A stretch of DNA of 64,000 nt from an uncultured bacterium (GTDB lineage Bacteria > CSSED10-310 > CAZUFC01), in the NCBI GenBank assembly GCA_964619725.1, contig CAZUFC010000032.1, positions 1 to 64,000 on the forward strand, given 5' to 3'. The first letter of the stretch is position 1, and each line of letters begins with the position of its first letter. Of this stretch, positions 10,229-42,693 are shown in pieces. The notes beneath the pieces were generated by a model, which saw only the letters and a list, made by a program, of their open reading frames with translations, made no database searches and had not been told where the DNA came from. The position numbers and the translations under genes were made by a program.

Positions 10229-10603
10229 TCTCTCCTCCGTCGTATATCGAATCCTTCGTTCACCTTCACACCTGTGTTCCTGTACTCGCGGCTTCTTCAT
10301 TTCGTTTTGAGTCGGAACTCGTTTTATTTTACCACATAACTGCAACGCCTGCACAATCGGAAAACGTTTTTTTTCGTTTTTTTTTTCTGTTTTGCGCTAA
10401 AAAAATGAAAAAATGGAGAAGAGTGGAAAATTGGAAGATTGGAAGAATTGATAGTCTGACGGAAGAGCCGGCAGGCGGATGGTCGTTAGATCGGAATGAT
10501 TGAACGGCGGATGTTTGTATGGTTGCTTTTCGTTGACGGATTGGTCTTTTTGCCTTCCCGGCGCCAGTGCGTCATAACATCTTGTCTGCTGGAAATAATG
10601 GCA

Positions 10604-15931: not shown

Positions 15932-17221
15932 TTATTTCGCTTCAGAAGATTTTCTGTAAGTATCTATGCGATATTCAATTTTGTTAAGCGGCAGGAATTC
16001 AGGGGCTTCAATGTCGCAGAAATGAGCGAGAGCGGAAAGTATTCTCAGTGAAGAACGTCCATCTCCATAAGGATTCGGCGCATTAGCCATACTGAGATAC
16101 GAATTGAAGTCGCTGAGCAAATGTTCTGTTTTCTGCACGATAATATCCGGATCGGTATCAACGAGAACCGCAGTTCCCGCTTCCAGCCCTTCCGGTCTTT
16201 CCGTGTTTTTTCTCAGTACGAGCACAGGTTTGTTCAAGGAAGGCGCTTCCTCCTGAATTCCGCCTGAATCTGTGAGAATTATGTCGGCGTGAACCATAAG
16301 TTTAACGAAATCCTCGTAATCCAGGGGTTCGAGGAGCATAATCTGTGATTTTCCATGAAGCATCTTCATAGCTTCGTTTTTCACCTGAGGATTAGGATGA
16401 ACGGGATAAAGCACCGTGTAATCGGGATTCCTTTCGGTCAATTTAAGCATAGCCTTGAAGATGTTCTTTAAGGGAGCGCCGAAACTTTCCCTTCGATGGG
16501 TAGTCAGTAGAATTCTTTTCTTTTTTCGCGTAAGCAGATTCCGATTTTGGAGGCTGGACGCCCCGGAACCTGCGAAGCGGGAGGCTATCTGGAGCAAAGC
16601 ATCGATGACGGTATTACCTGTAATGAAAACATTTTCTTTTCTTACTCCCTCGCATAAGAGGTTATCGCATGCAGCGGCGGTCGGGGTGAAATGAAGGTCG
16701 GCCAATGTCGCTATCATGTGTCTGTTCTTTTCTTCCGGAAAAGGATTGTATTTATCATAAGTTCTTAATCCTGCTTCAACATGACCGACAGTTATTTTAG
16801 AATGATAAGCGCAAACCGCTGCCGCCAGTGCGCTTGTCGTATCTCCCTGAACGATCACTAATTGAGGCGCATACTGATCAATCATCGGCGGTAAATTTTG
16901 CAGTATTTTGGCCATAAGTCCGTTCAGCGTCTGGTTTTTCTCCATTACTCTCAGATTGATATCCGGAGTAATTTCAAAAAATTTCAGAACGCCCTCAACG
17001 AGCTCTTTATGCTGGCCGGTGACAGCAACAATGGGTCGAAAATATTCGCTCTTATCCGTCAGCCGTATCAACGGACCCAGTTTCACCGCTTCAGGCCGCG
17101 TCCCGAATACATACATGATTTTTATGGGCCCCTGCATCCCTTCCGGGACTCGTTCCTTCACATACAATTCAAAAGGGCCTTTTTTGTTTTCCAGGTATTT
17201 TTGATTTTGATTTTTCATCAT
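15932..17221 (-). CDS. wecB: UDP-N-acetylglucosamine 2-epimerase (non-hydrolysing)
   Basis: FGTRPEAVK, TGQH, VQGDTT, HVEAGLR, PFPEE, TDSGGIQEEAPSL, TERPEG, NPYGDG. Confidence 0.95.
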   Translation of the reverse strand: MMKNQNQKYLENKKGPFELYVKERVPEGMQGPIKIMYVFGTRPEAVKLGPLIRLTDKSEYFRPIVAVTGQHKELVEGVLKFFEITPDINLRVMEKNQTLNGLMAKILQNLPPMIDQYAPQLVIVQGDTTSALAAAVCAYHSKITVGHVEAGLRTYDKYNPFPEEKNRHMIATLADLHFTPTAAACDNLLCEGVRKENVFITGNTVIDALLQIASRFAGSGASSLQNRNLLTRKKKRILLTTHRRESFGAPLKNIFKAMLKLTERNPDYTVLYPVHPNPQVKNEAMKMLHGKSQIMLLEPLDYEDFVKLMVHADIILTDSGGIQEEAPSLNKPVLVLRKNTERPEGLEAGTAVLVDTDPDIIVQKTEHLLSDFNSYLSMANAPNPYGDGRSSLRILSALAHFCDIEAPEFLPLNKIEYRIDTYRKSSEAK

Positions 17222-19500
17222 GCCGCTTTCTCCCTGTATTCACGTGTGTCGATCAATCCCTCAGTCTTTTTACCGTATCTCAAGGTATTTTCAACGAGAT
17301 TGAAAATTTCCAGGACATCCTTAAACGGTTTTTCGACTTTGGCCGCGGCGCCGAGTCGGACGGCTTCTTCCATATAGCCGTTAGCGTCGCAGCCCGACAT
17401 AACCACAGCCTGCAGATTCTTTTTAATGGTTTTCATTTCTTTAAAAGCTTCCAGGCCGTTTTTGCGGGGCATATTGATGTCGAGGATTACGACGGCGTAA
17501 TCTTTGTTTTTAACCATTTCAACAGCCTCCTGTCCGTCGGAAGCCACATCCACGTTGTATCCGTTGTGAGACAAAGTGGTGCATATCAGGTCCTGGATAA
17601 TGGCGTCGTCGTCCACGAGCAGAACGTTTTCTTTCTTGTCTGGCCTGTTTTTCCAGGGGTAGTAATCTCGGGCGATCAACACCAGCATTTCTCTCACTGT
17701 TTCATCGATCAATCTTGAAGCTGCTTCGCACAATTTTTCAATGCTTCTTTGCAGTTTTTCAAAGTTCGCTTTCCGGGGTTGAAAGATTTTGATTTTTTGG
17801 TGAGCGGTCGGAATTAGCCACTCGTCATCCAGTTGAAGGTCTTCGAAGAGTTTTTCCCCGGGTCGGAGACCGGTGAATTTGATTTCTATGTCGTTAAGCG
17901 ATAATCCGGCCACCTGGACCATTTCTTTTGCCAGGTCGGCTATTTTGATGGGTTCTCCCATATCAAGCACGAATATGCCCTCCTGATCCAATGAGGCAGC
18001 CTGCAGAATCAATCCTACGGCTTCCGGAATAGTCATAAAATAACGCTTCATTTCAGGATGCGTCACGGTGACTGGTCCTCCCCGGGCTATCTGACGTCTG
18101 AACAGAGGAATAACGCTTCCTTTACTGTTCATCACGTTACCGAACCTTACGGTGACGAAATTGACGTCGCTTTCATCCGACAGCCCCTGAACGTACATCT
18201 CGGCTATCCTTTTCGTAGCGCCCATTATGCTGGTCGGATGCACCGCTTTGTCGGTCGAAATCATAACGAACTGATCGACATTATATTTATGGGCGCAATC
18301 AGCCAGCGTCTTTGTGCCCAGAACATTGTTGAGCACGGCTTCTTCAGGATCGGTCTCCATCAGCGGCACATGCTTGTAAGCCGCAGCATGGAACACGATA
18401 TGAGGACTGCAGGACCGAAAAATATTTTCGATTTTATGGCTGTTTTTGATGTCGCAGACATGACATTCAACTTCAACGTCATTTTGAATTTTAGCTTCGG
18501 TGAGTTCCATTTTTATGTCATAGAGCGCGCTTTCCGAATTATCTATGACCATGAGCGATGCGGGGCGGTAACGAAGGGCCTGTCTGCAGAGTTCCGAGCC
18601 TATCGAACCGCCTCCTCCGCTGATCAGAACCCGCTTTCCTTTCATTTTGTTTTCTATGGCCGAATGGTCCAAAGAAACGCTTTCCCGGCCCAGCAGATCG
18701 CCTATGTCGACATCCCGCAAATGATGCAGATGAACGTCCTCGCCGGACAATTCATAAATCTTCGGCAATGTTTTGTGCCTCACGTTCGCTTCCCGGCACT
18801 TCTTGACGATGCCCCGCATCTGCTCGCTGTTCAAAGAAGGAATCGCTATGAGTATCTCCTCGATATGATGCCTTTTCACCATGGGAAGGATTTTATTGCG
18901 GTCTCCCAATATGGGAATTCCGTGCAACGTTTTCCCCGCTTTTCGCTGGTCATCGTCAATGAATCCTACGACATTTATCCTCATAGAAGGATTTCGCACG
19001 ATCTCCCTGGCCAGCATCTCTCCGGCGCTTCCCGCTCCCACGATCAGGATATTGCGAGGCCGGACATCCTTTTCCCTGGCCGATAACCTCTTGCCCCGCT
19101 TTTCGCTGAAAACCCTGTAGGCGAATCTCACGCCGCCGATCAAAAAGACCGCCATAAGAAAATCCAGGATAATGACTGACCGGGGGAAGCCGTCCAATCC
19201 AAAATAGAACACGAGTCCGGCCACCAGGATCAGCGACGATACGCCGGTTCCTTTCAATATGTTCAAAAGGTCTTCCGAGCTGGTGAAGCGCCAGATTCCC
19301 CTATGCAATCCGAACCAGTGAAGGCACCAGAAACGGACGCCGACCCAGAACAGGAGCGTTTCTGCAAAAATATGCCTGTATTCCGCAGTCATTTCTCCGG
19401 CAAATCTGAGCAGATAAGCAGAATAATAAGCTCCGCAAATCAGCAGAAGATCGGTGATGATGAGCGTAGCGTCCTTCCATCTGTTGAATCTTTTATCCAT
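17218..19500 (-). CDS. CapD/PglF-type UDP-GlcNAc 4,6-dehydratase with C-terminal response-regulator receiver domain
   Basis: Four N-terminal TM helices; IVGAGSAG CoA-binding-like domain; SDR core GGGGSIG, HAAAYKHVP, ISTDKAV, MGATKR, VRFGNV; then VLLVDDD...VILDINMPRKNG...VMSG...VEKPF. Confidence 0.92.
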   Translation of the reverse strand: MDKRFNRWKDATLIITDLLLICGAYYSAYLLRFAGEMTAEYRHIFAETLLFWVGVRFWCLHWFGLHRGIWRFTSSEDLLNILKGTGVSSLILVAGLVFYFGLDGFPRSVIILDFLMAVFLIGGVRFAYRVFSEKRGKRLSAREKDVRPRNILIVGAGSAGEMLAREIVRNPSMRINVVGFIDDDQRKAGKTLHGIPILGDRNKILPMVKRHHIEEILIAIPSLNSEQMRGIVKKCREANVRHKTLPKIYELSGEDVHLHHLRDVDIGDLLGRESVSLDHSAIENKMKGKRVLISGGGGSIGSELCRQALRYRPASLMVIDNSESALYDIKMELTEAKIQNDVEVECHVCDIKNSHKIENIFRSCSPHIVFHAAAYKHVPLMETDPEEAVLNNVLGTKTLADCAHKYNVDQFVMISTDKAVHPTSIMGATKRIAEMYVQGLSDESDVNFVTVRFGNVMNSKGSVIPLFRRQIARGGPVTVTHPEMKRYFMTIPEAVGLILQAASLDQEGIFVLDMGEPIKIADLAKEMVQVAGLSLNDIEIKFTGLRPGEKLFEDLQLDDEWLIPTAHQKIKIFQPRKANFEKLQRSIEKLCEAASRLIDETVREMLVLIARDYYPWKNRPDKKENVLLVDDDAIIQDLICTTLSHNGYNVDVASDGQEAVEMVKNKDYAVVILDINMPRKNGLEAFKEMKTIKKNLQAVVMSGCDANGYMEEAVRLGAAAKVEKPFKDVLEIFNLVENTLRYGKKTEGLIDTREYREKAA

Positions 19501-19703: not shown

Positions 19704-20912
19704 TCAGGCAATTTTTCTGTATTGCCGGCAAGCCTCTTTCTCACCTATTTCCTTGCACCAGAAAGCAATAGATTCAAGGGCATCGCAAACTTTGTCCACA
19801 TCGTTTTCACTCATTTCAGTGGATAAAGGAAGCGCCAGCCCCTGCAGCGTGATTTTTTCCGTTTTAGGCAGGTCGAACTTATGTTTCAAATAATATTCCT
19901 TATAAGCCTTCTGCCAGTGAACGGGCGGATAGAAATATTTTTTCGTTTCAATGTTTTCATCTGCCAGCGACTGGTAGACCTGGTCCCTGTCAATGCCGAA
20001 TTTGTCTTTGTGAATGAATACCACCATATAATTGCCGGAAGGTCGCGTGTTGTCCATAAACTTCTGGAATATAATACCCCGATGGAACTTCAGTCTTCTT
20101 TTGTATTGATGGATAAGTTTTAGCCGGTATCTGACGTTTTCATCCACTTTTTTCATATTTTTCAACGCCATCATGGCATGCAGCTCAGACATCCTGGCAT
20201 TCATTCCCGGAAAAATCGAATCATAGCCGTCTGTAATCCCGTAATTTCTGCCCAGCTTTATCTTTTCGTATAATTCTGTTCTGTTCGTCGTGACCATTCC
20301 GCCTTCGCAACCGGTAACCACCTTCGAAGGACTCAGACTGAAAACTTCCACATCCCCGAAACCGCCGGCTCTTCTTGAGTTATAAACCGCGCCGAAAGCC
20401 TGGGCTGAATCGAAAATGAGTGGCAGCTTATATTTCCAGGCCAGATATTCAAGATTCTGGATATCAGGCGGAACGCCGAAGATGTAAACCGCGATTATGG
20501 CGGAGGTGTTCGAATTAATCCTTCGTTCAACCTCGGAAACATCAATATTGAAAGTTCCCATACTGCAATCTGCGAACTGCGGATTCAGGCCGTTCCAGGT
20601 CAAGGCATGAACGGTGGCGGGAAAAGTGAAACTGGGAACGATCACCTCGCTTCCCTTGGGCAGACCGAGCGCTTTCAACGTCAGCATTAGGCCGCAGGTG
20701 CACGAGGACACGGCGACGGCATGGTTGACGTTTACGTATTCGCAGACTTTACTTTCTAATTTTTCTACGTATTCGCCGGCGGTGAGCTTCCCGGTTTCCA
20801 CGATTTTCATGAAATCGTTCCAGTAAGTAATCGGTTCTTCTAACGTAGGACGCACGATGGGAAGTTTTTGCTGAAAAATTGGTTTACCCCCTAAAATAGC
20901 CGGTTTTCTCAA
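19704..20912 (-). CDS. DegT/DnrJ/EryC1/StrS PLP-dependent sugar aminotransferase
   Basis: VPSFTFPAT, IFDSAQAFG, FSLSPSKVVTGCEGG (catalytic Lys), GMNARMSE; TTG start. Confidence 0.93.
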   Translation of the reverse strand: MRKPAILGGKPIFQQKLPIVRPTLEEPITYWNDFMKIVETGKLTAGEYVEKLESKVCEYVNVNHAVAVSSCTCGLMLTLKALGLPKGSEVIVPSFTFPATVHALTWNGLNPQFADCSMGTFNIDVSEVERRINSNTSAIIAVYIFGVPPDIQNLEYLAWKYKLPLIFDSAQAFGAVYNSRRAGGFGDVEVFSLSPSKVVTGCEGGMVTTNRTELYEKIKLGRNYGITDGYDSIFPGMNARMSELHAMMALKNMKKVDENVRYRLKLIHQYKRRLKFHRGIIFQKFMDNTRPSGNYMVVFIHKDKFGIDRDQVYQSLADENIETKKYFYPPVHWQKAYKEYYLKHKFDLPKTEKITLQGLALPLSTEMSENDVDKVCDALESIAFWCKEIGEKEACRQYRKIA

Positions 20913-21525
20913 GATAAGCCTCCTTCTTGAATCCGAAAAGTAAAAACAGAGTCCTGAAAATAACGAAATAATCGGACATTAAATTTGTTTTCAAAGAATA
21001 CTGTTCATAAAGTTTAAGTTTTTGCGGCAAGATAATTTTGGTATAGCATGATTCGCCGTCGTAATCATCGAAGAGAGAGCCTTCTTCGAAGAAGATGAGT
21101 GAGACGGGATCGGTAATGCCCGGCTTGCAGCGATTCATGAGTTCTTTGAATTGTTGCGGGTAACAGGCGGCAAAACGGGGCACTTCGGGACGAGGGCCGA
21201 CGAGCCGCATATCGCCTTTAATGACGTTGATCAATTGGGGAAGTTCATCGAGTTTTGTTTTTCGCAGCATCCTGCCGATTCTGGTGATTCTGCGGTCTTG
21301 TTCGGATGCGCAGAGAGGACCGTCGCAATCATAAGCCATGCTTCTGAATTTATATATATCGAATATTCGCCGTTTATACCCTACTCTCATTTGTTTAAAG
21401 AAGATGGGACCTTTTGAATCAATCTTGATCAAAACGGCGATAACGAAAAACAAGGGCCAGGTCAACGCCAGTCCGACCAGTGCGATGAAGCGGTCGATGA
21501 CTTCCCTGATGAAGTAATTTTTCAT
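20884..21525 (-). CDS. Initiating phosphoglycosyl transferase (PglC/WcfS-like small monotopic)
   Basis: KFRSM, RITRIGRMLRKTKLDELPQLINVIKGDMRLVGPRPE, KPGIT. Confidence 0.93.
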   Translation of the reverse strand: MKNYFIREVIDRFIALVGLALTWPLFFVIAVLIKIDSKGPIFFKQMRVGYKRRIFDIYKFRSMAYDCDGPLCASEQDRRITRIGRMLRKTKLDELPQLINVIKGDMRLVGPRPEVPRFAACYPQQFKELMNRCKPGITDPVSLIFFEEGSLFDDYDGESCYTKIILPQKLKLYEQYSLKTNLMSDYFVIFRTLFLLFGFKKEAYLEKTGYFRG

Positions 21526-21568: not shown

Positions 21569-22801
21569 TCAAGCAGCATCGGCTGCAGCCTGTTTCTTCA
21601 AGCGAAAAGCAATGCGATCGCTGTATTTTTTTGAGAGCCTTTTCTGCTGGATACTCAGCATTTCGTTGGACAGAGTTCTGGTGGCGGTCATGCTGTTGAA
21701 ATATTCATCCACCTGCGACCAGTCCACGTTTTTATGCCTTTCCGGATCATAAAACTCTGTTCCGGGATAAGGGGCCAGGATGGTGAATCCGACCATATCG
21801 GGTTTAATTTCATCGACAAGCTTTTCGGTCATATAAATATCTTCCATTGTTTCTTCAGGCATTCCCAGAAGGATATAAGCGCGTCTGAAGAAACCCATTT
21901 CTCGCGTCAGCTTGAATACGGATTTGATCATGGGAATGCTGATGTTCTTATTCATGTGTTCAAGTATTTTCGGACTGCCGCTTTCGACGCCTATCCAAAG
22001 TTCTCTGCATCCGGCCTCTTTCATGTGGTTGAGCAGGTCGGGTTTCGCCGTATCGACCCTGATATTGCATCCCCAGGAAGCTTGGTCTCCTGATCTAATT
22101 TTCAAGCTGCAGAATTCATGGATATTTTTCGGTTTAAGCGTCAATGTATCATCGGCGAATTTAATAAAATCGATGTTGAGGTCAGAGGTGACCTTCTGGA
22201 ACTCCTCGAAAATATTCTCCGGCGAACGGAAACGAGCTTTCCGGGACCATACGGACCGGCTGGCGCAAAAGGAACATTTAAAAGGGCAGCCGCGACCAGC
22301 CAGTATGCTTGCGATTCTGTATCCGTTGTCTTTAAAGGCCGTGCGAATATTGCGCTCCTGTTTTATCAGAATCCTGTCGGAGAACGGAATATCGTCGGGA
22401 TTCTTAATATAATCGCGCTGCACAATGCCTTTAAGCTTCTTTTCCACGATTTCTATAAAGGCCTTTTCGCCCTCGCCCTTGACGACGGTATCCACGACCG
22501 GATGATTCAACGTCTCTTCGGGAAGGGCCGATGCGTGCACTCCTCCGAAAACGATTAGATTCTTATTTGTTTTTATTTTTTCAGCCAGCTGCAGCGCATG
22601 ACGCATCTGAGGCGAGGTACAGGAAAAGCCGATCACGTCGGCATCTTTACAGCCTTCAATAATCTGCCGGTCGTCATCGTAGAAGCCGCTGAAAAATTCT
22701 ATATCGGAATGACCGTTCTTTTTCAGGGCAGCTCCGAGATAGCCCAGATTAAGCGCTTCCCAGGTATGAAAAGTTTTCGGTTGTATTAATGCTGTTTTCA
22801 T
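21569..22801 (-). CDS. Cobalamin-binding radical SAM protein
   Basis: N-terminal B12-binding domain (LGYLGAAL, VIGFS, FGGVHAS, VKGEGE); GRGCPFKCSFC; GVESGS. Confidence 0.92.
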   Translation of the reverse strand: MKTALIQPKTFHTWEALNLGYLGAALKKNGHSDIEFFSGFYDDDRQIIEGCKDADVIGFSCTSPQMRHALQLAEKIKTNKNLIVFGGVHASALPEETLNHPVVDTVVKGEGEKAFIEIVEKKLKGIVQRDYIKNPDDIPFSDRILIKQERNIRTAFKDNGYRIASILAGRGCPFKCSFCASRSVWSRKARFRSPENIFEEFQKVTSDLNIDFIKFADDTLTLKPKNIHEFCSLKIRSGDQASWGCNIRVDTAKPDLLNHMKEAGCRELWIGVESGSPKILEHMNKNISIPMIKSVFKLTREMGFFRRAYILLGMPEETMEDIYMTEKLVDEIKPDMVGFTILAPYPGTEFYDPERHKNVDWSQVDEYFNSMTATRTLSNEMLSIQQKRLSKKYSDRIAFRLKKQAAADAA

Positions 22802-22822
22802 TCAAAACCACCTTCATTATGA

Positions 22823-23953
22823 TTATCTTACAGGCTCCCAGGTCGGTTTCTTCTGCCCCTGGAGAGCTTTCATCACTCCTAAAGCAGCCCCCAGATTAAC
22901 GACGCAGAAGTAATAGGGAATCTTCAGGAATCTGCTTTTCGTCACCCTTAATTCAGTTATGAGCGCTGCGGTATAAAAGAGAACCTGAAAAGCCATGGTA
23001 AAGTTATAAAAATTCTGACCGATGAGCCTCACGTTGAGCAGAAAAACGGTCGGCAGGAGAAAAGGTATCATCCAGCGCAGCAGTCGATGTGATGCCAGTA
23101 TCCACGAGTGAACCGGATAGCGGAAAGGATTGAGCAGGACGGCGTTGCTGAGAATAGAGGATAATTCCCGCATGGCTCCCCTGGATTTGATTTTTATTTC
23201 GCCCGCAGCCGTTGAAGCTGAACGCTCGTAAGCCGTCGCCTCCTTTTCATATACCACCCGATAACCTTTGCGATTGACTTGAAGCGGTGAAACGCTGTCA
23301 TCGGGTTGATAGGGTTCCACGTACGTCCACAAATTTTTCCTTATGGCGTAAAAAGGACCGCTGACGAAAAGAAGTCTTCCTAACCGCCCTTCCTGCTCCT
23401 TTAAAAACTCCTCGTACTTCCAATAGATCGATTCGTTTTCACTGATCAACGATTCATCGAAATTCGTATACTTGAGTTGTCCGCATACAGCGCCGACCCG
23501 ATCGTCGTTGAAATTACGGATTATCTTTTTAAGAGCATCCGGCTCCAATAAAGTCGTGGCATCGGTCAAAACGATAATTTCACTGTTTTCAGCGGGTATA
23601 AGCTTGTTCAACATAGCGCTCTTGCCTTGTCTGCGTTCCTGGCGAAACAACCTGATGCCTTTGTCCGCATATTTTTCGGCTAATTCATCGGTGCCGTCGT
23701 CGGAAGCATCGGAAGCCACTATGACCTTCATTTTTTCGGAAGGATAATCCAGTCTCAGAGTATTTTTCAGTTTATCCTCGATGATCTTCGCTTCGTTATA
23801 CGCCGGTATGATCATCGTTATTTCCTTCAATTCATCTCCCCGGCGAATTTTAAACGGAAAGAGCTCCGCTAAGATTCTGAGAATCACGGGATAGAAAAAG
23901 TATACGTAGAGCATACAGGCTATGCATAGCCAGAAAAGTGCAACGAATATCAT
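22823..23953 (-). CDS. Glycosyltransferase family 2 with TM helices
   Basis: IIPAYNE, SDASDDGT, GKS, LTDA, SGPFYAIRK. Confidence 0.9.
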   Translation of the reverse strand: MIFVALFWLCIACMLYVYFFYPVILRILAELFPFKIRRGDELKEITMIIPAYNEAKIIEDKLKNTLRLDYPSEKMKVIVASDASDDGTDELAEKYADKGIRLFRQERRQGKSAMLNKLIPAENSEIIVLTDATTLLEPDALKKIIRNFNDDRVGAVCGQLKYTNFDESLISENESIYWKYEEFLKEQEGRLGRLLFVSGPFYAIRKNLWTYVEPYQPDDSVSPLQVNRKGYRVVYEKEATAYERSASTAAGEIKIKSRGAMRELSSILSNAVLLNPFRYPVHSWILASHRLLRWMIPFLLPTVFLLNVRLIGQNFYNFTMAFQVLFYTAALITELRVTKSRFLKIPYYFCVVNLGAALGVMKALQGQKKPTWEPVR

Positions 23954-25785
23954 TTTCCTTCTCCTGTTTCAGTGATGAAGGGCCCCATGGCGAGAGTATC
24001 CACGCTTCCCTGCTGATAGGCTTTAACTGCGTCCTGAGGGGAGCATACGATGGGTTCTTCATGAATATTGAAACTGGTGTTGATGAGCAAGGGCAAGCCG
24101 CTTTTTTTCTTGTATTCCGACAGGACGGCGTGATAAGAGGGGTTCTGATCTTTATTAACGGCCTGGGGTCTTGCGGTGCCGTCGATGTGAGACACCGCGG
24201 GCGCTTTTTCGATGAATTCGGGTTCGACGTCGAAAGTAATGGTCATAAAAGATGCCGTATGCCTGCATTTGTCGAAACCCCGGTAAACCTTATCCGCGTC
24301 TTCTTCCAGTATGGAAGGAGCAAAAGGCATGAATTCAGTCCTCTTCAATCTTTTGTTCAACCAGTCATTGATCCGGGCATCCTGCGGATCGGCCAGAATG
24401 CTTCTGTTTCCGAGCGCTCGCGGCCCATATTCCATTCTTCCTGTGAATCTGCCGACTATTTTGCCCTTCGATACCAGTTCAGCAATATCTTTTTCCGGAT
24501 ACTTCGCCTTCCTGAATTTAATGCCGGCATCCTCCAGGGCTTTAGCCATATCCCTTTCCGTATATTCCGGCCCGAAATATACGTCCTTTAATTTCATCCC
24601 TTTGAAGAGACTTCCTTCTTCCCTGCAGATATGCGCGTGCCATTCCATAGCTCCGCCCAACGCCAGTCCTCCGTCACCCATATCGGGATGCACGAAAACC
24701 GTATCGACTGAATCCAGCTCCGCAATCTTCTGGTTTATCTTGACGTTGGCGAACAGGCCGCCGGCCAGAGCCACCTTTTTTATCCCTGTCGCCCTGGCCA
24801 ATACGCCCACATGACGGGCCGCCAGGTCCTCCATTCTTTTCTGAAGGGCCGCAGAGATATCCTCTCTGGAGTGTCCCTTGAGTCTCTTCTCGAGGTGCTG
24901 GAATAATCTTCCCTGAACAGTTGAAAATATGGGTATGCCCCGCATCATGGTTCGCAGGGAATAGAGATAACGCTGCATGGCGTATTCGGCGCCGAATCCA
25001 TAAGTGAACTCATATCCGTTGTCCGTCAACTGCAAAGCTTCTTCGAAAACATCGTAGCATTCATCAGGGTCACCATAGGCCGCCAGTCCGGTAATTTTTC
25101 CCTCATGCCGATTTCTTTTGAATCCCAGCAGCCAGGTAACCGCGCTGTAAACATAACCCGGGGAATACATCATAGGGGTGGAAGAAATACGTCTCAGCGA
25201 ACCGTTTTCTCCGATCCACGCTGTGGCCGCACACCCGTCGCCGGCTCCGTCAATCGCAACGATCAGACAACGGTCTGAAAACCCGGAGGTATAATAAGCG
25301 CTGGCCGCATGACACAGATGATGGTCGAGATGATAAATGGGAACTCCGCTCAACCCCAGGTATGACAAAGCATCGCCCAGTTTTTCATTCCCGTAACGGG
25401 TAATCTGCTTTTTGTACAGGTCCGAACTCGCCATCATGGGAACAATTTCCAACAGTTTCATCAAACGATAATGAAGCGGCGCCTGAGAAAAATCCACTCC
25501 GCCGCCGTTGCGTTTCATAACGGCCCGCAGAACGGAGGGTCTGACGTATGGAAAACTGCAACTGGGCACAATGATCGCTTCCACCTCTTCAGGTTCCACC
25601 CCACCCAGGGACAGGCATTTTTCAACAGCCTTATATGGGAATCCCGTGTGGAATTTGATCCTGCTTAATCTCTCTTCAGCAATCGCTGCCGCCGGCCGGC
25701 CGTTGATCAGCAGTGCGGCCGTCCCGTCGTGATCTGGATGGATGCCGAGTATTATACGATCCGAATTATTTTTCTTGTTGGTCAA
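23950..25785 (-). CDS. O-carbamoyltransferase (NodU/CmcH/TobZ family)
   Basis: HDGTAALL, EERLSRIK, DHHLCHAASAYY, IDGAGD, HEGKITGLAAYG, MEYGPRALGNRS, INTSFNIHEEPIV. Confidence 0.95.
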   Translation of the reverse strand: MTNKKNNSDRIILGIHPDHDGTAALLINGRPAAAIAEERLSRIKFHTGFPYKAVEKCLSLGGVEPEEVEAIIVPSCSFPYVRPSVLRAVMKRNGGGVDFSQAPLHYRLMKLLEIVPMMASSDLYKKQITRYGNEKLGDALSYLGLSGVPIYHLDHHLCHAASAYYTSGFSDRCLIVAIDGAGDGCAATAWIGENGSLRRISSTPMMYSPGYVYSAVTWLLGFKRNRHEGKITGLAAYGDPDECYDVFEEALQLTDNGYEFTYGFGAEYAMQRYLYSLRTMMRGIPIFSTVQGRLFQHLEKRLKGHSREDISAALQKRMEDLAARHVGVLARATGIKKVALAGGLFANVKINQKIAELDSVDTVFVHPDMGDGGLALGGAMEWHAHICREEGSLFKGMKLKDVYFGPEYTERDMAKALEDAGIKFRKAKYPEKDIAELVSKGKIVGRFTGRMEYGPRALGNRSILADPQDARINDWLNKRLKRTEFMPFAPSILEEDADKVYRGFDKCRHTASFMTITFDVEPEFIEKAPAVSHIDGTARPQAVNKDQNPSYHAVLSEYKKKSGLPLLINTSFNIHEEPIVCSPQDAVKAYQQGSVDTLAMGPFITETGEGK

Positions 25786-25820
25786 TAGCCCCTACCTCCT
25801 TCGTGTTCAGCCGAAATCCT

Positions 25821-27098
25821 TCAAGCCGCCCTGTTCAGCAGAACTCTCGATTCCGGAACTTTATGCAGTTTTTCTATGATGTCGTTATAAGAATTCATCA
25901 ATCTTTTTTCATCATAAACGGAAGCTTTGGCCGCAGCATTTCGCCCCAAATGCAAACGCAGCTTCTTGTTGCGGCACAACTCACCGATAGCCAGATCAAA
26001 CCGCTCCAGGTCATCCTCTATGAATGCATCCTCAGCATGACTGACTTCATAACCGCGGAATCCCATACTCGTGGATACCACCGGCATTCCCGCAGCCATG
26101 GCTTCGATGACTTTCAGCTTGGTTCCGCCTCCGCTGAAACACGGATAAACATAAATGTCTGCAGCCGCATAATATTCGTTTATATCGTCCGTTCTTTCAA
26201 TTAAAGAGACCGATCTCAAAAGATCGTCAGATTGTAATTTCTTGCCTGTCGCCTCAGCCACTCCGCCTACCAGAAATAAATGAACGTCAGGATAATGCGT
26301 CCTCAAACTGGGAAGTATCTTACGTATTATGTCTTCCGCAGCTTGAACGTTGTGGAACATATCGGACCCTGAAAACATCAATGCGATATCAGCATCTTTC
26401 AAAGAATATTTTCTTCTTAAATCATAGTTTTTAGTCCTGGGGTATATTTTCTCGGTATCGACGCCGTTAGGTATGACGGTCAGCTTGCTTTCAGGCGTCC
26501 CGTACCGGATGAACTCCCGCTTGTCCTCTTCGCACATGCATACTACGGCATCGCAATTCAGCAGCGCTTCTTTCTCCATTTTATTGACCGATTCCATAAT
26601 TCTCCCTGTTCTCCGTGCTGATCTGCATGTTTTTTCGAGTTTTTGCCGATATCGGTCCGTAACGACGTCGTGAGCCGTAAATATCGCGGGAATGTCAACT
26701 CCGCTTTTGAGGAAGGGCGGAACCGCCCACATGTTCTCCAGTATAACGACGTCAGTTTTGCGAGCCTCTATTATCCGTTTCAGGCTTTCGGCATACGAAC
26801 GAAACGGAAAATCTTTCGCTTTGATATAATCGTATAATCGCATCCCGCTGAAGACGCGTTTCCAGAGAGTTTCCATCAATACGCGTGAGCTGACGGCGTG
26901 ATTGCTGACATTAATATGCATATCGCTCGGCGCGAAAGCTCTCGATTTTACGTCATATTGAAACAGATCGACCTTGTGGCCGCACCTGATCAATGCATCC
27001 AGCATGGACCTTATGCGCATAACGTTTCCGTTGCCTCGGGCGGGATGTGCAAAAAGGTTATAAGCATTAACAACCAGAATATTCATTTCTAACCTCAC
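25821..27098 (-). CDS. Glycosyltransferase family 4 (start may be 27086)
   Basis: HDV, VIPNGVD, GTKLKVIEAMAAGMPVVST. Confidence 0.9.
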   Translation of the reverse strand: MRLEMNILVVNAYNLFAHPARGNGNVMRIRSMLDALIRCGHKVDLFQYDVKSRAFAPSDMHINVSNHAVSSRVLMETLWKRVFSGMRLYDYIKAKDFPFRSYAESLKRIIEARKTDVVILENMWAVPPFLKSGVDIPAIFTAHDVVTDRYRQKLEKTCRSARRTGRIMESVNKMEKEALLNCDAVVCMCEEDKREFIRYGTPESKLTVIPNGVDTEKIYPRTKNYDLRRKYSLKDADIALMFSGSDMFHNVQAAEDIIRKILPSLRTHYPDVHLFLVGGVAEATGKKLQSDDLLRSVSLIERTDDINEYYAAADIYVYPCFSGGGTKLKVIEAMAAGMPVVSTSMGFRGYEVSHAEDAFIEDDLERFDLAIGELCRNKKLRLHLGRNAAAKASVYDEKRLMNSYNDIIEKLHKVPESRVLLNRAA

Positions 27099-28314
27099 TC
27101 ATTGAGTTTTTTGACAGGATTCCTAATAAAAGATCATGTATTTTTTTAATGATGCTGTCCCAAGTATATTCCCGAAGAGCCTCCAATTTTTCTTCTTTAT
27201 GCTGAACAGCGTCCGAATTTTTATGAACTATACCGCCTATGATTTCCTCAAACCGTTCGGGCGAATCGGCTATATTTATTAATCTCTCAAATGGCTTTGC
27301 TCCTTTCACGGCGGAAGATATCACCGGAATGCCTGAAGCGATGTATTCGAATAATTTCAGAGGGCTTTGAGTTCTGGTGAGTGAATTATCCTTATGAGGG
27401 AGCCATAAAACATCGCAATTTTTCATGTAGCAGGGAATTTCCGCGTGCGATTTCAAACCCAGAAAAACGACATTTTGCAGTTTTTCCAATTTTTTCCGTG
27501 AGCCTGAGCTTAAACCGACCTGTCCTACGAACAGGAAAGACCATTCGGGATGCTTTTCAGCCAGCAGTCGGATCAACCGGATATCCAGTTTATCGGTAAT
27601 GCCGCCGCAGTAACCGATGATGGGACGCGAAATGTTTTTCATATCTTTCGGCATTATCTGATTATGCTTGCCGGCGAATAAATCAAGGTCGACGCCATTG
27701 GGTGCGATCCTTATATTTGAATTCTTCTTGCTCAGTTTTTCGGCCGCGTAAGCTGTCTGAACCAGGGTCAAATCCGACTGTCTGATCCAGAAATCGTCCA
27801 TTCCGGTCACCCATCTTTTTATTCCTTTGCCTTTTCCGTAAAGTTCAGGGAAATCTTCCGTACGATCGTAGATGACGGGGAGATTTAAATCACGCTTCAA
27901 GGCTTGGGGAACGAAAGGATGCGTCACCCAGAGCACTGCCGGCGAAAGCGCTGTTTTTGCGGCGATTTTTCTTGTTGATGCCGCCAGGCATTTTGATTCC
28001 ATCAGGAAATTGAATTTCTGCATTCGATAATCGTTCAATCTCGGCAGTAAAACGACCGGCGTCCAAACATAAACGTCGCCTTTTCGGACCAGTGCGCCCT
28101 GTTCCAAGTATCTCCTCCAGTAACCGCTGATTTTAGGATGCGCTTTTCCCGCCAGGGTTTTGACCAGGGAAACCAATGTAAGCGGATGCTCGACATAGAG
28201 AATTTTCCCGATATCGCTTCTTTCAGCCAATCCTTCCATAATTCTCTGGCGACGTCTTCTCTGAGCATCCCATTGATCGCCGAAGCAGATTATATCGTAT
28301 CTCTTACGGTTCAT
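27067..28314 (-). CDS. GT-B glycosyltransferase (GT4-like, TuaH-like)
   Basis: IYDRTEDF, APNGVD, IIGYCG, SPLKLFEYIASGIPVIS. Confidence 0.88.
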   Translation of the reverse strand: MNRKRYDIICFGDQWDAQRRRRQRIMEGLAERSDIGKILYVEHPLTLVSLVKTLAGKAHPKISGYWRRYLEQGALVRKGDVYVWTPVVLLPRLNDYRMQKFNFLMESKCLAASTRKIAAKTALSPAVLWVTHPFVPQALKRDLNLPVIYDRTEDFPELYGKGKGIKRWVTGMDDFWIRQSDLTLVQTAYAAEKLSKKNSNIRIAPNGVDLDLFAGKHNQIMPKDMKNISRPIIGYCGGITDKLDIRLIRLLAEKHPEWSFLFVGQVGLSSGSRKKLEKLQNVVFLGLKSHAEIPCYMKNCDVLWLPHKDNSLTRTQSPLKLFEYIASGIPVISSAVKGAKPFERLINIADSPERFEEIIGGIVHKNSDAVQHKEEKLEALREYTWDSIIKKIHDLLLGILSKNSMSEVRNEYSGC

Positions 28315-29519
28315 TATGCTGCCTCTCTCACGCAGGAGACCGATTCGTAAATTTCAGTCATTGCCTGCAAGACTTTAACCGTATCAATACCTTTCATGCA
28401 TTCGCCGCTTCCGCAAGATATTCCGTCGAAGGTATAACAGGGCGAACAGGCGAAGTCTGATGCGACGATTTTGAAATGAGCTCCCCAGGGATGATTTTTT
28501 TCCGGCCTGGTCGGTCCGAAAACGGCCGTCACAGGTAAGTTGACTGCAGCGGCCAGGTGCATGAAGCCGCTGTCGTTCGTTAAAGCTAAATCGCATTTTT
28601 CAAGCAGCGCCCCTACAGTCGCAGGCTTCATCCGCTTTATGAAGCGATACGAACGGCTACAGCTGACCTTCTCTAATAGTTCCGGACTCTCTTCATTCCC
28701 GGCGAAAAGCGCTATTTCGCCGCCGAACCTCTCTCTGAAAGCGTCGGCAGTTTCTACAAAACGGTCCAGAGGCCAGATTTTCTGATGCCAGGCGGCCTTT
28801 GCTCCCGTATGAACCGCCAATATCGGACCGCGACCGCTTAAACCCTGCTCCTCCAGAATTCTTGCAGCCCTCTCCCTTTCCTCTTCGGGAACAACAAAAT
28901 CAATATTCTTATCGAGCTGCGCGATGTCGATATCTCTTTTCAGCACATATTTTATTATTTCCAGGTTTTGTATGACTTCATGACGATTCAGAACGCCTTT
29001 TTCGATCCAGGTATCCAGGAAATGAACCGGGCCTGTCCGGCGGCCTATCCGATAAGGGATACCCGTGGCCGCCGCCCAGAATGAATTCTTGGAAGAACGC
29101 TCATACAGAGTTGAGATGCAAAGATCAAAATTCCTCTCTTTGAAATATTCGCGGAAAAATTTAACGCCGGAGAAAAGTCGTAATTCAGGGACCTTCTTCT
29201 CCAGGATGATTTCATCCACGGCTGGACATAAGGATAAAACCTGCTTCACGTTTTCATCCGATGCCAGCAGCGTGAGCGATGCCTGCGGAAGGAATTCTTT
29301 TAACGTCTGAAGCGCGGGGGTGAGCAGGAGAGCGGAACCCATGCCCTGATTGTAAGCCAGGATGAGGATATTTTTTACTTTGCAGGGATCATAGGAGATT
29401 CTTCGGATGCATTTTAACGGATAGCATAGGATTGAAACCGGAATTGAAGCGAGAGTCAAAAGCGAATCTTTATCAAAATATTGAAGCGATTCGGTGATTT
29501 TTTTTCTGATCTTTTTCAT
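28314..29519 (-). CDS. Glycosyltransferase family 9 (heptosyltransferase-like)
   Basis: GMGSALLLTPALQTLK, AVHTGA, KIWP, TNDSGFMHLAAA, VFGPT, CSPC. Confidence 0.9.
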   Translation of the reverse strand: MKKIRKKITESLQYFDKDSLLTLASIPVSILCYPLKCIRRISYDPCKVKNILILAYNQGMGSALLLTPALQTLKEFLPQASLTLLASDENVKQVLSLCPAVDEIILEKKVPELRLFSGVKFFREYFKERNFDLCISTLYERSSKNSFWAAATGIPYRIGRRTGPVHFLDTWIEKGVLNRHEVIQNLEIIKYVLKRDIDIAQLDKNIDFVVPEEERERAARILEEQGLSGRGPILAVHTGAKAAWHQKIWPLDRFVETADAFRERFGGEIALFAGNEESPELLEKVSCSRSYRFIKRMKPATVGALLEKCDLALTNDSGFMHLAAAVNLPVTAVFGPTRPEKNHPWGAHFKIVASDFACSPCYTFDGISCGSGECMKGIDTVKVLQAMTEIYESVSCVREAA

Positions 29520-29535
29520 CTTTTTTTGTTTCAGT

Positions 29536-32508
29536 TCAGGCGATTAACTCCATCTCCTGCAGGCGTGGCGAAAGCATTTCGACTGCGTTATCGAAAACAG
29601 TCCCCACATTGATCGATTCCATGCAGTAATTCAAACCCTGACGGCATATTCTGCTGTCGCATGCCTGACACTCCGAATCGCCCCTCAAGCTTCTGTCCTG
29701 AGGCCGATATGTTTCCCATACGGAGGGCGAGGGACCGCAAAGCGCGAGTATTGGAGTCGGGGTGGCGGCAGCGACGTGCATCAGTCCTGAATTATTGCCT
29801 ATGAAAAGGTCTGCGGCGTCTATGAGGGCGGCCAGATGCGAAACCGAGGGAGTCATCCCCGTCATATCGATTATTCTTTGTTTATGGTTATTGATGTTTT
29901 CCGTATCTAACCTTTCATTTTCAGAACCTACGATGATTATTTCTGCAGGAGTATTCCTCAGCAGCTCCCCGATAAGCAGTTGATATTTTATCGACGGCCA
30001 TTTCTTGTTATTCCATCCTTTTCCCGCGCCGGCATGGATCACCACACGCGGCACCCTCTTGTCCGAACGGTCGAATTTGTCCATGTATCCTTTCGCCCAT
30101 TCCTTCTCTTTTTTTCCGAACTTCACGACCGTGCCTTCCGCTGCCTCTGCCTGCCTGCCGCCTAGAAAACTCATGGCGTCCAGGATCATATGGTGAATCC
30201 GCATACCGGGTAACGGACTGTCGGCACTGCTGTTCAAACAACGGGTAAAATTAGATTCATCTTCTTCGGGAAGATCGCTGAATCCGATTCTGTATCTGAT
30301 TCCCGCGGCTACAGTCATCCATTTACTGGAATCGCAAGGCTCAACGTCCAAACACAAAGAATATCCCTCTTTTCTCAATGTCCTTACAGTTCTCAGTTTG
30401 CTCAGCAGCCCTTTATCGCCGCCCCCTTTCAGTATGCCTTCCGATTCGTTGCGCAAGTCGAATGGGATGAGCTTGTCCACATCATCATTATTCTTGAATA
30501 TTCCGAAACATTCGGACGGAACGGCCAGATGAACTACGATGCCCTGGCTGTTCTTTTTTAAAGAACGCAGAAGGGGCGTCACGGCGAGTTGATTCCCCAG
30601 GCTGTAATTATGATTGCAGATCAAAACTTTCCTTATCTTTCCCAGTTCAGCGGAACGGAGCAGTTTCTCGTAATCCTTATCGGTCTTCAGACTCGCGTAT
30701 TTCCTGATTATAATCCTGCGGACCTCATCAAATATGTCCCATACGGAACTCATCATCGCTTTGATGACATTGAACCGCTTCAGTTTGTTCTCCTTGATGC
30801 CGTAAATTAAAGGAAAAGCCTGAATGTGAAATGATATCTCGAACAATACCTTCTTCATGCGGCGCTTTTCTAAATCATCAGTCATGACGATTATTTCATT
30901 CACGTCATGCCGTTTCACCCATTCGCGTCGCTTGAATCTGTCCATACTGTCGATAGAATAAGGAAAAAATTGCACATCCTTGCATTCCTCTTCAGACAAC
31001 GAAACAGATTCGCCAGCTCCCAGAACGATCAACTTCCTTGAACTCAGCTTCTTCCTTAAACGCCGCATCACATTCACTGCCGGTTCATTGCTGAATCTCC
31101 ATAAAATCAGACTCGTTTTTTTCTCACGGGATGCCTCGCCCCATTCACTGATTTCAGCCTTGCCGTTCCCGGAAAACGCTACAATTCGAGAATCCGCCGT
31201 CTCTCGCTCCTTGATGATGTTTGTCCAGGCCTGCACCATCTTCACTGCGCTTCTCTTCCAGGTGTAATTCTCAATAATCCGATCATATTCGCTGTTCCAG
31301 GCCCTGTTTCTCGTCTTCGCCAGTTCTTCTGCCCATTGGTCCTCGTTGAGAGCTGCCAGGGAAACATTCCCAAGATTCATTATTTTTAATTCTTCAAGAG
31401 GAGACGCTACGATGTATTTACCTGCAGCGGTATACTCCAGAATCTTTATGGGTAAAGCGGCATCTGTCAGTCTATTCTTCTCGAACGGCAGGGTTCCCAC
31501 ATCAATCATGCGGAAATAAAGCGGCATATCTTCCGGGTCTTTCCGTCCCAGGAATCGAATCGAAGGATCATTTCGGTATTTAGGTTCCAGTCGCTCCGCT
31601 TCCTCCCCCGGTCCGATTATCAGCAAAACGGCATCATCCATCCGTTTTTTCAGTTTCTGAAAAGCTGCTGTTAAAAATTCCAGTCCGCTCCACCATTCGT
31701 GATTGCCTATGCAGCCTATTACCCACTTATCCTGGAGACCGAGACTATTCTTCAGTTTTGCTATACGTGTCTCGGAAACCGAACGGTACGCTTCCGGTTC
31801 AACCCCGTTGGGGATATAAAGCGGATTCCCGGCGCCCAGCGTCTTCAAAGAACTTAATAATACCCTGGAACAGGAAGAAGCGATGTCCGCCTTGCTGATT
31901 TCCTCCTTGTAGAATACCTTTAATCTCTCGTAGGCGGCCCGGTCTCCCGAACGGGAAAGCGCGCCCAGATGATCGTCAGCCAGATCGAACAAATAAACCG
32001 CTCCGGTATTCTCCGGAAAAGGATAATGTCCCGTATCCGAATTGACGACTGCCTGAATGTCGTATTCCTTGATGAACCGCTCCAGACGATACTTGTTATA
32101 CTCCCGGGCGCTCTGTCGATCGCTCCTGATGAGTCCCAGTCGGACATAGCTTATTTTTCCTTCGCGCTCCAAAAAAGTATAAGGATTCAGCAATCCCTTA
32201 ATCCTGCCCGGCAAATCGAACCTACTCTCCGAAAGTCTTTCCTCCGGAAGCAAATAGTAGGATCGGCGCTTCTCCGCCGCCGCACGAGCCAGCTCAAGAC
32301 TCCTGATTCTTACTCCTCCCGGATTCGTGGAATGGGGAATGAAGAGAACCCCGGGATATGCGGAATCAAGTTTCAAATCCTTGATTCCCCGTAATTTTTC
32401 CAACCTGTAAGCAGTGCGGAATAAACATTCGCACAACATATCCGATGAACCTCGCACCAAACTTCGATCCCTTTTTCTTCCCGCATCATTAAATGACTTT
32501 TTATTCAT
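29536..32508 (-). CDS. Fused GT4-like + GT9 glycosyltransferase (990 aa)
   Basis: N-part LFDLADDH, IPNGVE, LPIKILEYTAAGK; C-part SLGNQLAVTPLLRSLK, IHAGAG, KKWP, FIGNNSGLMHVAAA. Confidence 0.88.
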   Translation of the reverse strand: MNKKSFNDAGRKRDRSLVRGSSDMLCECLFRTAYRLEKLRGIKDLKLDSAYPGVLFIPHSTNPGGVRIRSLELARAAAEKRRSYYLLPEERLSESRFDLPGRIKGLLNPYTFLEREGKISYVRLGLIRSDRQSAREYNKYRLERFIKEYDIQAVVNSDTGHYPFPENTGAVYLFDLADDHLGALSRSGDRAAYERLKVFYKEEISKADIASSCSRVLLSSLKTLGAGNPLYIPNGVEPEAYRSVSETRIAKLKNSLGLQDKWVIGCIGNHEWWSGLEFLTAAFQKLKKRMDDAVLLIIGPGEEAERLEPKYRNDPSIRFLGRKDPEDMPLYFRMIDVGTLPFEKNRLTDAALPIKILEYTAAGKYIVASPLEELKIMNLGNVSLAALNEDQWAEELAKTRNRAWNSEYDRIIENYTWKRSAVKMVQAWTNIIKERETADSRIVAFSGNGKAEISEWGEASREKKTSLILWRFSNEPAVNVMRRLRKKLSSRKLIVLGAGESVSLSEEECKDVQFFPYSIDSMDRFKRREWVKRHDVNEIIVMTDDLEKRRMKKVLFEISFHIQAFPLIYGIKENKLKRFNVIKAMMSSVWDIFDEVRRIIIRKYASLKTDKDYEKLLRSAELGKIRKVLICNHNYSLGNQLAVTPLLRSLKKNSQGIVVHLAVPSECFGIFKNNDDVDKLIPFDLRNESEGILKGGGDKGLLSKLRTVRTLRKEGYSLCLDVEPCDSSKWMTVAAGIRYRIGFSDLPEEDESNFTRCLNSSADSPLPGMRIHHMILDAMSFLGGRQAEAAEGTVVKFGKKEKEWAKGYMDKFDRSDKRVPRVVIHAGAGKGWNNKKWPSIKYQLLIGELLRNTPAEIIIVGSENERLDTENINNHKQRIIDMTGMTPSVSHLAALIDAADLFIGNNSGLMHVAAATPTPILALCGPSPSVWETYRPQDRSLRGDSECQACDSRICRQGLNYCMESINVGTVFDNAVEMLSPRLQEMELIA

Positions 32509-32529
32509 AATTTACAATTGCCTCATCTT

Positions 32530-36717: not shown

Positions 36718-36759
36718 GTATTCAGCTCCTTTTTATTAGATTAAGGCTTGGGAAGGAAT

Positions 36760-41570: not shown

Positions 41571-41688
41571 GCACTCTCCCCCCGGATTTCCAGGAAATAA
41601 AAAACCCGTTTAAATGCCGCCCTTCAGCATCTGACTCCCTTGTTGAGCGTACCCGGTCTGTTTCTTCTCACTATTTTTACAACTTCAA

Positions 41689-42378: not shown

Positions 42379-42693
42379 ATGCCCCCTCCGTTCTTTGAAT
42401 TAACCTTTCATTGCTGAATTAATGAATAATTAAACTGTTTCAATAAGATGCGCTGATATACCATGATGAAAAAAAAGCGGCTGCAAATCCTGGAAGATTC
42501 TTCGACCGCCTGTTTCGTATTTTTTTCTTTTCATTCTTTGTCCGGCTTCCTTCTGTATCTCCTTAAGTTCTCACTGCTTCGCCGCCGTTTACTCACCGGA
42601 CGCAAGGCTTATATCTCTCTTGCCGTCCCAACGGCGGCAGCAGAAGAACGAGCCCCTTCAAGAAACTCGTTCTCTGCGCCCACTCGCTCAATA

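What the first reader, a model, noticed from the sequence alone, without database searches (positions are those of the whole stretch)
17218..17640. CapD/PglF sugar-nucleotide dehydratase fused to an intact receiver (REC) domain
Seen: after the normal end of the dehydratase the frame continues ~135 aa into a CheY-like domain with the acidic pocket (VLLVDDD), phospho-acceptor Asp (VILD-INMP, codon 17481-17479), switch Ser (VMSG) and conserved Lys-Pro (EKPF). Its stop overlaps the wecB start, consistent with a real gene end. Established: this family catalyses the first committed step toward the initiating 6-deoxy amino sugar and normally has no REC domain. Inference: direct two-component phosphorylation control of polysaccharide precursor flux, with the enzyme as output or as a phosphate sink. 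No kinase is encoded in this window.
Basis: partly seen in the sequence, partly recalled or inferred. Interest (0 to 1): 0.75.

Follow-up and report, generated by a model that had tools for sequence, protein, structure and literature searches.

The report
Sugar dehydratase with phospho-switch tail
The enzyme that begins making a rare starter sugar for this mat bacterium's slime coat carries an intact phosphorylation-switch domain on its tail, a rare, repeatedly seen but untested design that may let a signal turn sugar supply on or off at the enzyme itself.

Summary
Confirmed. ORF 19500-17218(-) is one 760-aa frame: four N-terminal helices, a PF13727 domain, a PglF/WbpM-type dehydratase (TDK...MxxxK intact) and a C-terminal receiver (626-728, Pfam E 7e-24) with all phospho-site residues. 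It is in a Wzx/Wzy exopolysaccharide cluster, after a small phosphoglycosyl transferase and an aminotransferase.

It is not an assembly artefact: 22 other fusions turned up (36-44% identical; named ones from Omnitrophota, Syntrophales, Binatia). The phospho-Asp is kept in 23 of 23 and the full receiver set in 19 of 23. Trees reject one fused clade (AU p 0.003-0.004). In one clade the receiver is under purifying selection (few changes). No histidine kinase lies on this contig or in four related loci scanned.

Best reading (0.5, inferred): an orphan kinase phosphorylates the receiver, which gates precursor supply, akin to Myxococcus EpsW acting on EpsZ, which shares the N-terminal module. A phosphate sink, action in trans or a passenger are not excluded.

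JGI already auto-names the architecture; this scan earlier found transferase-dehydratase-receiver triple fusions in three other genomes. I found no paper on it, but could not read two key surveys. New variant of a known kind.

The parts
17218..19500 (-). PglF/CapD-type membrane dehydratase fused to a C-terminal receiver, 760 aa
   Evidence: AlphaFold2 mean pLDDT 80.9, pTM 0.54
19075..19497 (-). Four long N-terminal helices (res. 2-142), the membrane bundle shared with large phosphoglycosyl transferases
   Evidence: helices 2-32, 39-62, 75-100, 107-142; TIGR03025 matches res. 16-266 below cut-off; membrane location inferred, no topology predictor run
18691..19068 (-). Cytoplasmic Rossmann-like DUF (PF13727), res. 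~145-270
   Evidence: same domain as in WbaP/EpsZ per PMC10942596
17782..18630 (-). SDR dehydratase core (res. 291-573) with T416-D417-K418 and M426xxxK430
   Evidence: best PDB match C. jejuni PglF 5BJU, E 3e-89; target TM-score 0.92, rmsd 2.3 A
17629..17664 (-). Short linker (res. 613-624); 11-41 residues across the fused family
   Evidence: pLDDT <50 at 617-621
17260..17628 (-). Receiver domain (res. ~625-747): D630/D631/D632, phospho-acceptor D674 (17481-17479), S702, K724-P725
   Evidence: matches T. maritima CheY and Spo0F at E ~1e-13
19704..20912 (-). DegT-family sugar aminotransferase, likely acts on the dehydratase product
   Evidence: PF01041 E 3e-98; role inferred
20884..21525 (-). 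Small monotopic phosphoglycosyl transferase (Bac_transf), likely loads the starter sugar
   Evidence: PF02397 E 1.5e-50; role inferred
15932..17221 (-). wecB UDP-GlcNAc 2-epimerase, start overlapping the fusion's stop
   Evidence: TIGR00236 444.8 bits, cut-off 210
21569..43890 (-). Rest of the co-oriented Wzx/Wzy polysaccharide cluster: beta-barrel, OPX export protein, Wzc, Wzy/ligase-TPR, Wzx, GT4/GT9/GT2, methyltransferase, carbamoyltransferase, B12 radical SAM
   Evidence: co-transcription not tested

Best explanation
SHOWN: one polypeptide joins an intact PglF-type UDP-GlcNAc 4,6-dehydratase to an intact receiver, in a Wzx/Wzy polysaccharide cluster. FROM FAMILY KNOWLEDGE: the enzyme makes UDP-4-keto-6-deoxy-GlcNAc; the neighbouring aminotransferase would aminate C4 and the small transferase would load the sugar on the lipid carrier. 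INFERRED: a histidine kinase encoded elsewhere (or acetyl phosphate) phosphorylates D674. The receiver then changes the enzyme's activity allosterically, most plausibly via the DUF/catalytic-domain arrangement or the oligomer, so that UDP-GlcNAc (also needed by WecB and the cell wall) is committed to this polymer only on signal. The direction of control is unknown; activation is favoured only by analogy with EpsW/EpsZ.
For: All canonical receiver residues are present. 22 further fused proteins were found (Pfam checks). The phospho-Asp is kept in 23 of 23, Lys in 21 of 23, Ser/Thr in 20 of 23 and the full set in 19 of 23, though the other receivers are only 18-37% identical to the query's. A single fused clade is rejected (AU p 0.0027; p 0.0036), and the Syntrophales-type fusions nest among unfused enzymes (SH-aLRT 95-99), so the design arose at least twice or was lost many times. 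In that clade receiver dN/dS is 0.086 (L045 vs L046; 7 synonymous, 2 non-synonymous changes; enzyme core 0.097) and 0.22-0.32 in deeper pairs. In 3 of 4 related loci scanned, a transferase and an aminotransferase lie upstream as here. Precedent: phosphorylated EpsW stimulates EpsZ, and modelling puts it on the DUF and catalytic domain (PMC12802240). PglF-like dehydratases share that N-terminal module (PMC10942596).
Against: No experiment exists. No histidine kinase is on this contig (0 of 50 HisKA) or among 51 ORFs scanned from 4 related loci. The receiver is dispensable for this enzyme class: the closest catalytic relatives are unfused and 0 of 6 long homologues in the 13 other genomes of the phylum are fused. 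Within fused clades it decays: 4 of 23 lack a canonical residue, P0295 is degenerate, and P0391 ends in the linker. Linker length varies from 11 to 41 residues and evolves freely (dN/dS 0.3-1.5). One close pair gave receiver dN/dS 0.59 on only 3 changes (L040 vs L041). The receiver is C-terminal and several of its best matches are hybrid-kinase receivers, a position typical of relay or sink domains (recalled). The selection evidence comes from another clade, not from the query's own lineage.
Confidence: 0.5

Rival explanations
1. The receiver is a membrane-tethered phosphate sink or relay. It drains or passes phosphoryl groups of a two-component pathway, possibly reporting enzyme state or cluster expression, while the enzyme itself is constitutive.
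For: C-terminal position; matches to hybrid-kinase receivers in the genome (C42, C7, C60); freely evolving linker; conservation of phospho-site residues fits this equally well; DifD is a published sink in EPS control (PMC12802240).
Against: A sink need not be fused to this particular enzyme, yet the same enzyme class carries it in more than one lineage.
Confidence: 0.2
2. The receiver acts in trans. The dehydratase only positions it at the membrane, where it recruits or activates the neighbouring small phosphoglycosyl transferase or aminotransferase (a phospho-gated metabolon).
For: EpsW's target is a transferase; small transferases with fused receivers are noted in print (Discussion of PMC12802240 citing O'Toole 2021); transferase-dehydratase fusions exist (P0008, P0050); transferase and aminotransferase are neighbours in 3 of 4 related loci.
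Against: The transferase here is the small type without the DUF that EpsW is modelled to contact. L046 keeps the receiver with no transferase among the ORFs scanned. The interaction was not modelled.
Confidence: 0.15
3. The receiver is a tolerated passenger from an old read-through or recombination with a regulator gene and has no regulatory role now.
For: Patchy, rare distribution; the query has no close fused relative (best 44%); losses and decay in other clades; absent from phylum relatives.
Against: All functional residues are kept although the receiver is at most 38% identical to any other receiver in the genome; composition matches the rest of the gene (GC 0.47, GC3 0.59); dN/dS is well below 1 in another clade.
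Confidence: 0.13
4. Assembly or sequencing artefact joining two genes.
For: Genome is a MAG with 6.5% contamination; no independent contig listed bridges the junction.
Against: 22 independent proteins have the same architecture, one cluster with 25 members; there is no separate start or stop at the junction; no indel or joint was reported.
Confidence: 0.02

Closest known systems
PglF (C. jejuni, PDB 5BJU) / WbpM (P. aeruginosa) / CapD (S. aureus) membrane UDP-GlcNAc 4,6-dehydratases
   Same: N-terminal membrane region plus SDR core with TDK and MxxxK (PMC8987622); 44% identity and TM 0.92 over the PglF structure; aminotransferase and small transferase alongside.
   Different: Extra 135-aa C-terminal receiver. 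No PglD/NeuD-type acetyltransferase over cut-off in the genome (0 of 14 matches), so the final sugar is probably not diNAcBac. S. aureus CapD was not phosphorylated by CapAB (PMC6441080).
EpsW/EpsZ of Myxococcus xanthus (PMC12802240)
   Same: Receiver-based, post-translational control proposed at the start of a Wzx/Wzy pathway; the target shares the 4-helix + PF13727 module; similar small-OPX + beta-barrel export genes in the cluster.
   Different: EpsW is a separate protein, its target is a transferase, and its kinase (DifE) is known. Here the receiver is fused, the enzyme is a dehydratase, and no kinase is identified.
Response regulators with enzymatic output (e.g. REC-glycosyltransferase MTH_548; PMC5847659 section vii)
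   Same: Receiver fused to a metabolic enzyme with narrow, lineage-specific distribution.
   Different: Receiver at the C-terminus; a PglF-type output is not named in the passages read.
Transferase-dehydratase-receiver triple fusions
   Same: PglF-type dehydratase with a receiver tail.
   Different: The transferase is a separate gene here. I did not recover a triple fusion in my own searches and could not read O'Toole 2021.

Membership tests
PglF/WbpM-type UDP-GlcNAc 4,6-dehydratase | TDK...MxxxK active-site signature (Met instead of Tyr) | tested here: met
   T416 D417 K418, M426 K430; signature from PMC8987622
PglF/WbpM-type UDP-GlcNAc 4,6-dehydratase | N-terminal membrane anchor plus PF13727 domain before the SDR core | tested here: met
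   (helices modelled; topology itself not predicted)
[quoted passage not shown]
   SGGGGSIG; Foldseek to 5BJU TM 0.92
PglF/WbpM-type UDP-GlcNAc 4,6-dehydratase | C5-retaining dehydration of UDP-GlcNAc | not testable with these tools
   needs an assay; inverting PseB/FnlA models score far below cut-off (159/408, 138/730)
Campylobacter pgl (diNAcBac) pathway | PglD-type acetyltransferase | tested here: not met
   no TIGR03570 match over cut-off in a 91%-complete genome; none among the cluster ORFs scanned
Canonical phosphorylatable receiver domain | Acidic pair, phospho-Asp, Ser/Thr, Lys | tested here: met
   D630/D631, D674, S702, K724; aligned with CheY
Canonical phosphorylatable receiver domain | (beta/alpha)5 fold | tested here: met
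   five strands and five helices at 625-747, block pLDDT 66-91
Response regulator with enzymatic output | Phosphorylation by a cognate kinase | not testable with these tools
   no linked kinase; 10 of 50 HisKA genes have no receiver within 5 kb and are candidates
Response regulator with enzymatic output | Receiver state changes enzyme activity | not testable with these tools
   needs a bench assay
EpsW/EpsZ-type system | Stand-alone receiver acting on a large monotopic phosphoglycosyl transferase | tested here: not met
   the receiver is fused and the cluster's transferase is the small 213-aa type; it may work like EpsW/EpsZ but is not a member
EpsW/EpsZ-type system | DUF lacks the dimer beta-hairpin when receiver-controlled | tested here: inconclusive
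   crude sequence proxy present in 13 of 20 fused and 149 of 203 unfused proteins, absent in the query

The most novel reading that the evidence does not exclude
The 4-helix + PF13727 module shared by large phosphoglycosyl transferases and PglF-type dehydratases is a general receiver-responsive allosteric switch. Bacteria in several phyla have independently hard-wired it by fusing a receiver to the dehydratase, giving direct two-component control of nucleotide-sugar flux one step upstream of the EpsW/EpsZ checkpoint.
Probability: 0.25. Interest if true: 0.72.

Novelty: new variant of a known kind. Interest (0 to 1): 0.47.

Why it matters
Post-translational control of Wzx/Wzy pathways is poorly understood (PMC12802240), and why PglF-type dehydratases share their N-terminal module with large transferases is called puzzling in print (PMC10942596). 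A natural dehydratase-receiver fusion makes both questions testable in one purified protein with a simple assay and BeF3-. If the receiver gates the enzyme, it would be an Asp-phosphorylation checkpoint on a sugar-nucleotide precursor enzyme, a type I did not find in the papers searched. It ranks mid-range because receiver-enzyme fusions are a known class, the architecture is already auto-annotated, it is rare, and the named members come from metagenome assemblies.

Tried and rejected
- Complex prediction of receiver (620-745) against DUF + core (140-616), 23-row alignment: no verdict, score 0.00; no evidence either way.
- ESM Atlas: no usable hit.
- Genome-contig scan with the query tail: 4 loci, each matching only one part of the query (3 the receiver, 1 the enzyme tail); not examined further. 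Hence no neighbourhoods for the Omnitrophota-, Binatia- or P0170-type fusions.
- No RNA holder listed.
- Sigma-54 promoter motif (recalled): 2 matches against 2.6 expected, none upstream of the cluster.
- Query as sister of transferase-dehydratase fusions: seen in two trees (SH-aLRT 93, 95), lost with more taxa; not claimed.
- Receiver tree: unresolved, and one fused clade is not rejected (p 0.16). A shared origin of the query with the Omnitrophota-type fusions is not rejected; the constrained tree scored 9.9 lnL higher than the free one, which shows the quick searches are imperfect and the AU values approximate.
- Recent capture from a paralogue: best genomic receiver 38% identical.
- Hairpin proxy: first regex was wrong, corrected version inconclusive.
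- L049 left out of the dN/dS reading (core looks frameshifted). 46 of 86 rows were dropped before the first AU test (near-duplicates, long branches and other rows picked by hand to shrink the set).
- Papers not held: a Galperin 2010 review of output domains (DOI recalled) and O'Toole 2021.
Full report
OBSERVATION. The minus-strand frame 19500-17218 encodes 760 aa without a stop. Pfam gives CoA_binding_3 (70-241), Polysacc_synt_2 (291-573, E 6e-112) and Response_reg (626-728, E 7e-24). Unfused relatives stop a median 14 residues after the last conserved motif (n=207, max 71); this protein continues for 147. The AlphaFold2 model on 23 rows has mean pLDDT 80.9, four N-terminal helices, a low-confidence linker (617-621) and a five-strand/five-helix receiver; pTM 0.54 suggests the domain arrangement is not fixed in the model. 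Only contigs could be laid: one from the possible source run spans the gene with no difference, and no listed piece of three other runs of the same study bridges the junction.

THE ENZYME. The core is a PglF/WbpM-type dehydratase: best PDB match C. jejuni PglF (E 3e-89; TM 0.92), with the TDK...MxxxK signature that defines the class (PMC8987622, passages). It is the only such long dehydratase in the 9.17-Mb, 91%-complete genome. It lies near the end of a co-oriented cluster with a beta-barrel, OPX, Wzc, Wzy-like, Wzx and several glycosyltransferases, directly after a small phosphoglycosyl transferase and a DegT aminotransferase and before wecB. No PglD-type acetyltransferase passes the cut-off (0 of 14 matches), so a free or otherwise modified 4-amino-6-deoxy-HexNAc starter is likelier than diNAcBac (inference).

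THE FUSION RECURS. Four searches gave 22 further fused proteins: 1 new of 120 listed, 5 of 150, 11 of 120 and 5 new of 120. Two of these searches scored only the ~8,000 best candidates, so 23 is a lower bound; against thousands of unfused homologues it is rare. Identity to the query is 36-44%. Sources name Ca. Omnitrophota (P0142), Syntrophales (a cluster member of P0288) and Ca. Binatia (P0293); JGI's automatic name for several is 'FlaA1/EpsC-like NDP-sugar epimerase/ActR/RegA family two-component response regulator'. In the query's own phylum, 6 of 13 other genomes have a long homologue and none is fused. Across the 23, the phospho-Asp is invariant, Lys is kept in 21, Ser/Thr in 20 and the full set in 19; catalytic M/K are kept in 23. 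Trees of the catalytic core show four well-supported fused groups plus two singletons, including the query, and reject a single fused clade (p 0.0027, 12 vs 28 rows; p 0.0036, 15 vs 39 rows). The Syntrophales-type group nests among unfused enzymes with an unfused sister. Against over-reading: the receiver tree is unresolved (p 0.16), and a query + Omnitrophota-type clade is not rejected and even scored better than the free tree. The safe statement is at least two origins, or one origin with many losses.

SELECTION AND CONTEXT. A metagenome scan returned 17 loci, 10 of them from the Syntrophales-type clade. Receiver dN/dS is 0.086 for L045 vs L046 (7 synonymous, 2 non-synonymous; core 0.097) and 0.22-0.32 for deeper pairs, while the linker is near neutral; one very close pair gave 0.59 on 3 changes. 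Of 51 ORFs scanned from 4 loci none is a histidine kinase (the one HATPase hit is Hsp90). Three loci have a transferase and an aminotransferase upstream; L046 has lost the membrane helices and has a second, stand-alone receiver gene just upstream. P0391 of the same clade ends in the linker. In the query genome 50 HisKA and 103 receiver domains pass cut-off, no HisKA lies on this contig, and 10 HisKA genes have no receiver within 5 kb.

MECHANISM. The most likely reading (0.5) is an orphan response regulator with enzymatic output: D674 phosphorylation alters dehydratase activity and so decides whether UDP-GlcNAc enters this polymer. The structure and conservation are shown; phosphorylation, the kinase and the allosteric link are inferred. 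The best precedent is EpsW~P stimulating EpsZ, modelled to contact the DUF and catalytic domain and to promote dimerisation (PMC12802240; abstract, Introduction, Discussion and passages read). PglF-like dehydratases share the 4-helix + DUF module, which binds uridine nucleotides in WbaP (PMC10942596; passages and section 10). Tyrosine phosphorylation activates S. aureus CapE and CapM but not CapD (PMC6441080, passages). Rivals: phosphate sink or relay (0.2), action in trans on the transferase or aminotransferase (0.15), passenger (0.13), artefact (0.02).

PRIOR KNOWLEDGE. Receiver-enzyme fusions are a recognised class (PMC5847659, passages and section vii; PMC12471899, passages). Receivers fused to small transferases are mentioned in PMC12802240 citing O'Toole 2021, which I could not read. 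Ten full-text searches showed no paper on a PglF/CapD-receiver fusion; hits other than the papers named here were seen as listings only, PMC10186338 as passages, and no supplements were opened. The library lacks most subscription papers. Earlier notes of this scan report transferase-dehydratase-receiver triple fusions in three other genomes; they are unchecked and are not counted as support.

VERDICT. Real, rare, recurrent and apparently untested; a new variant of a known kind; interest 0.47.

Noticed in passing
L046:7934-8410 and 8450-10438: In one related locus the fused dehydratase lacks its membrane helices and is directly preceded by a separate gene for a receiver with a hydrophobic C-terminal helix, within a sugar-phosphate cluster (GHMP kinase, PFK, transaldolase).
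   Followed up: partly
P0391 (protein): Near-copy of the Syntrophales-type fusion with the same altered N-terminus as L046 but ending in the linker: receiver lost or a sequencing error.
   Followed up: partly
L057:2318-4663 (G000 C210): 782-aa frame fusing a GT2 glycosyltransferase to a large phosphoglycosyl transferase; the genome has 7 Bac_transf genes.
   Followed up: no
window 18769-19050: The dehydratase DUF weakly matches the N-terminal domain of NeuD/PglD acetyltransferases (E 6e-8), hinting at a nucleotide-sugar-binding role.
   Followed up: no
window 28314-32508: GT9 (heptosyltransferase-like) gene and a 990-aa GT4-GT9 fusion inside an exopolysaccharide-type cluster.
   Followed up: no
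window 21569-25785 and 32530-33750: Tailoring candidates in the cluster: B12 radical SAM, NodU-like carbamoyltransferase and an (alpha/alpha)-barrel-like protein with weak pectate-lyase/cyclase matches.
   Followed up: no
window 43970-44530: 186-aa protein with an apparent signal peptide and an acidic Gly-rich tail heading the cluster; no Pfam or NCBIfam match.
   Followed up: partly
window 11390-15235: 1281-aa beta-helix surface protein ending in a Pro/Thr linker, IPT-type motif and hydrophobic tail, resembling an IPTL-CTERM sorting signal (family name recalled; no NCBIfam hit at 1e-8).
   Followed up: no
L035:3018-3824, L024:4956-5789, L022:927-2856, L028:1149-2111: Other unusual receivers in the genome: REC-glycine-cleavage-H, REC-TIR-like, and three related ~310-aa proteins with a receiver plus an unassigned domain.
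   Followed up: no
L040:3836-5605, L041:3616-5646: Split transketolase / E1-type thiamine-enzyme pairs sit between the transferase and the aminotransferase in related loci, suggesting branched or acylated sugar tailoring.
   Followed up: no
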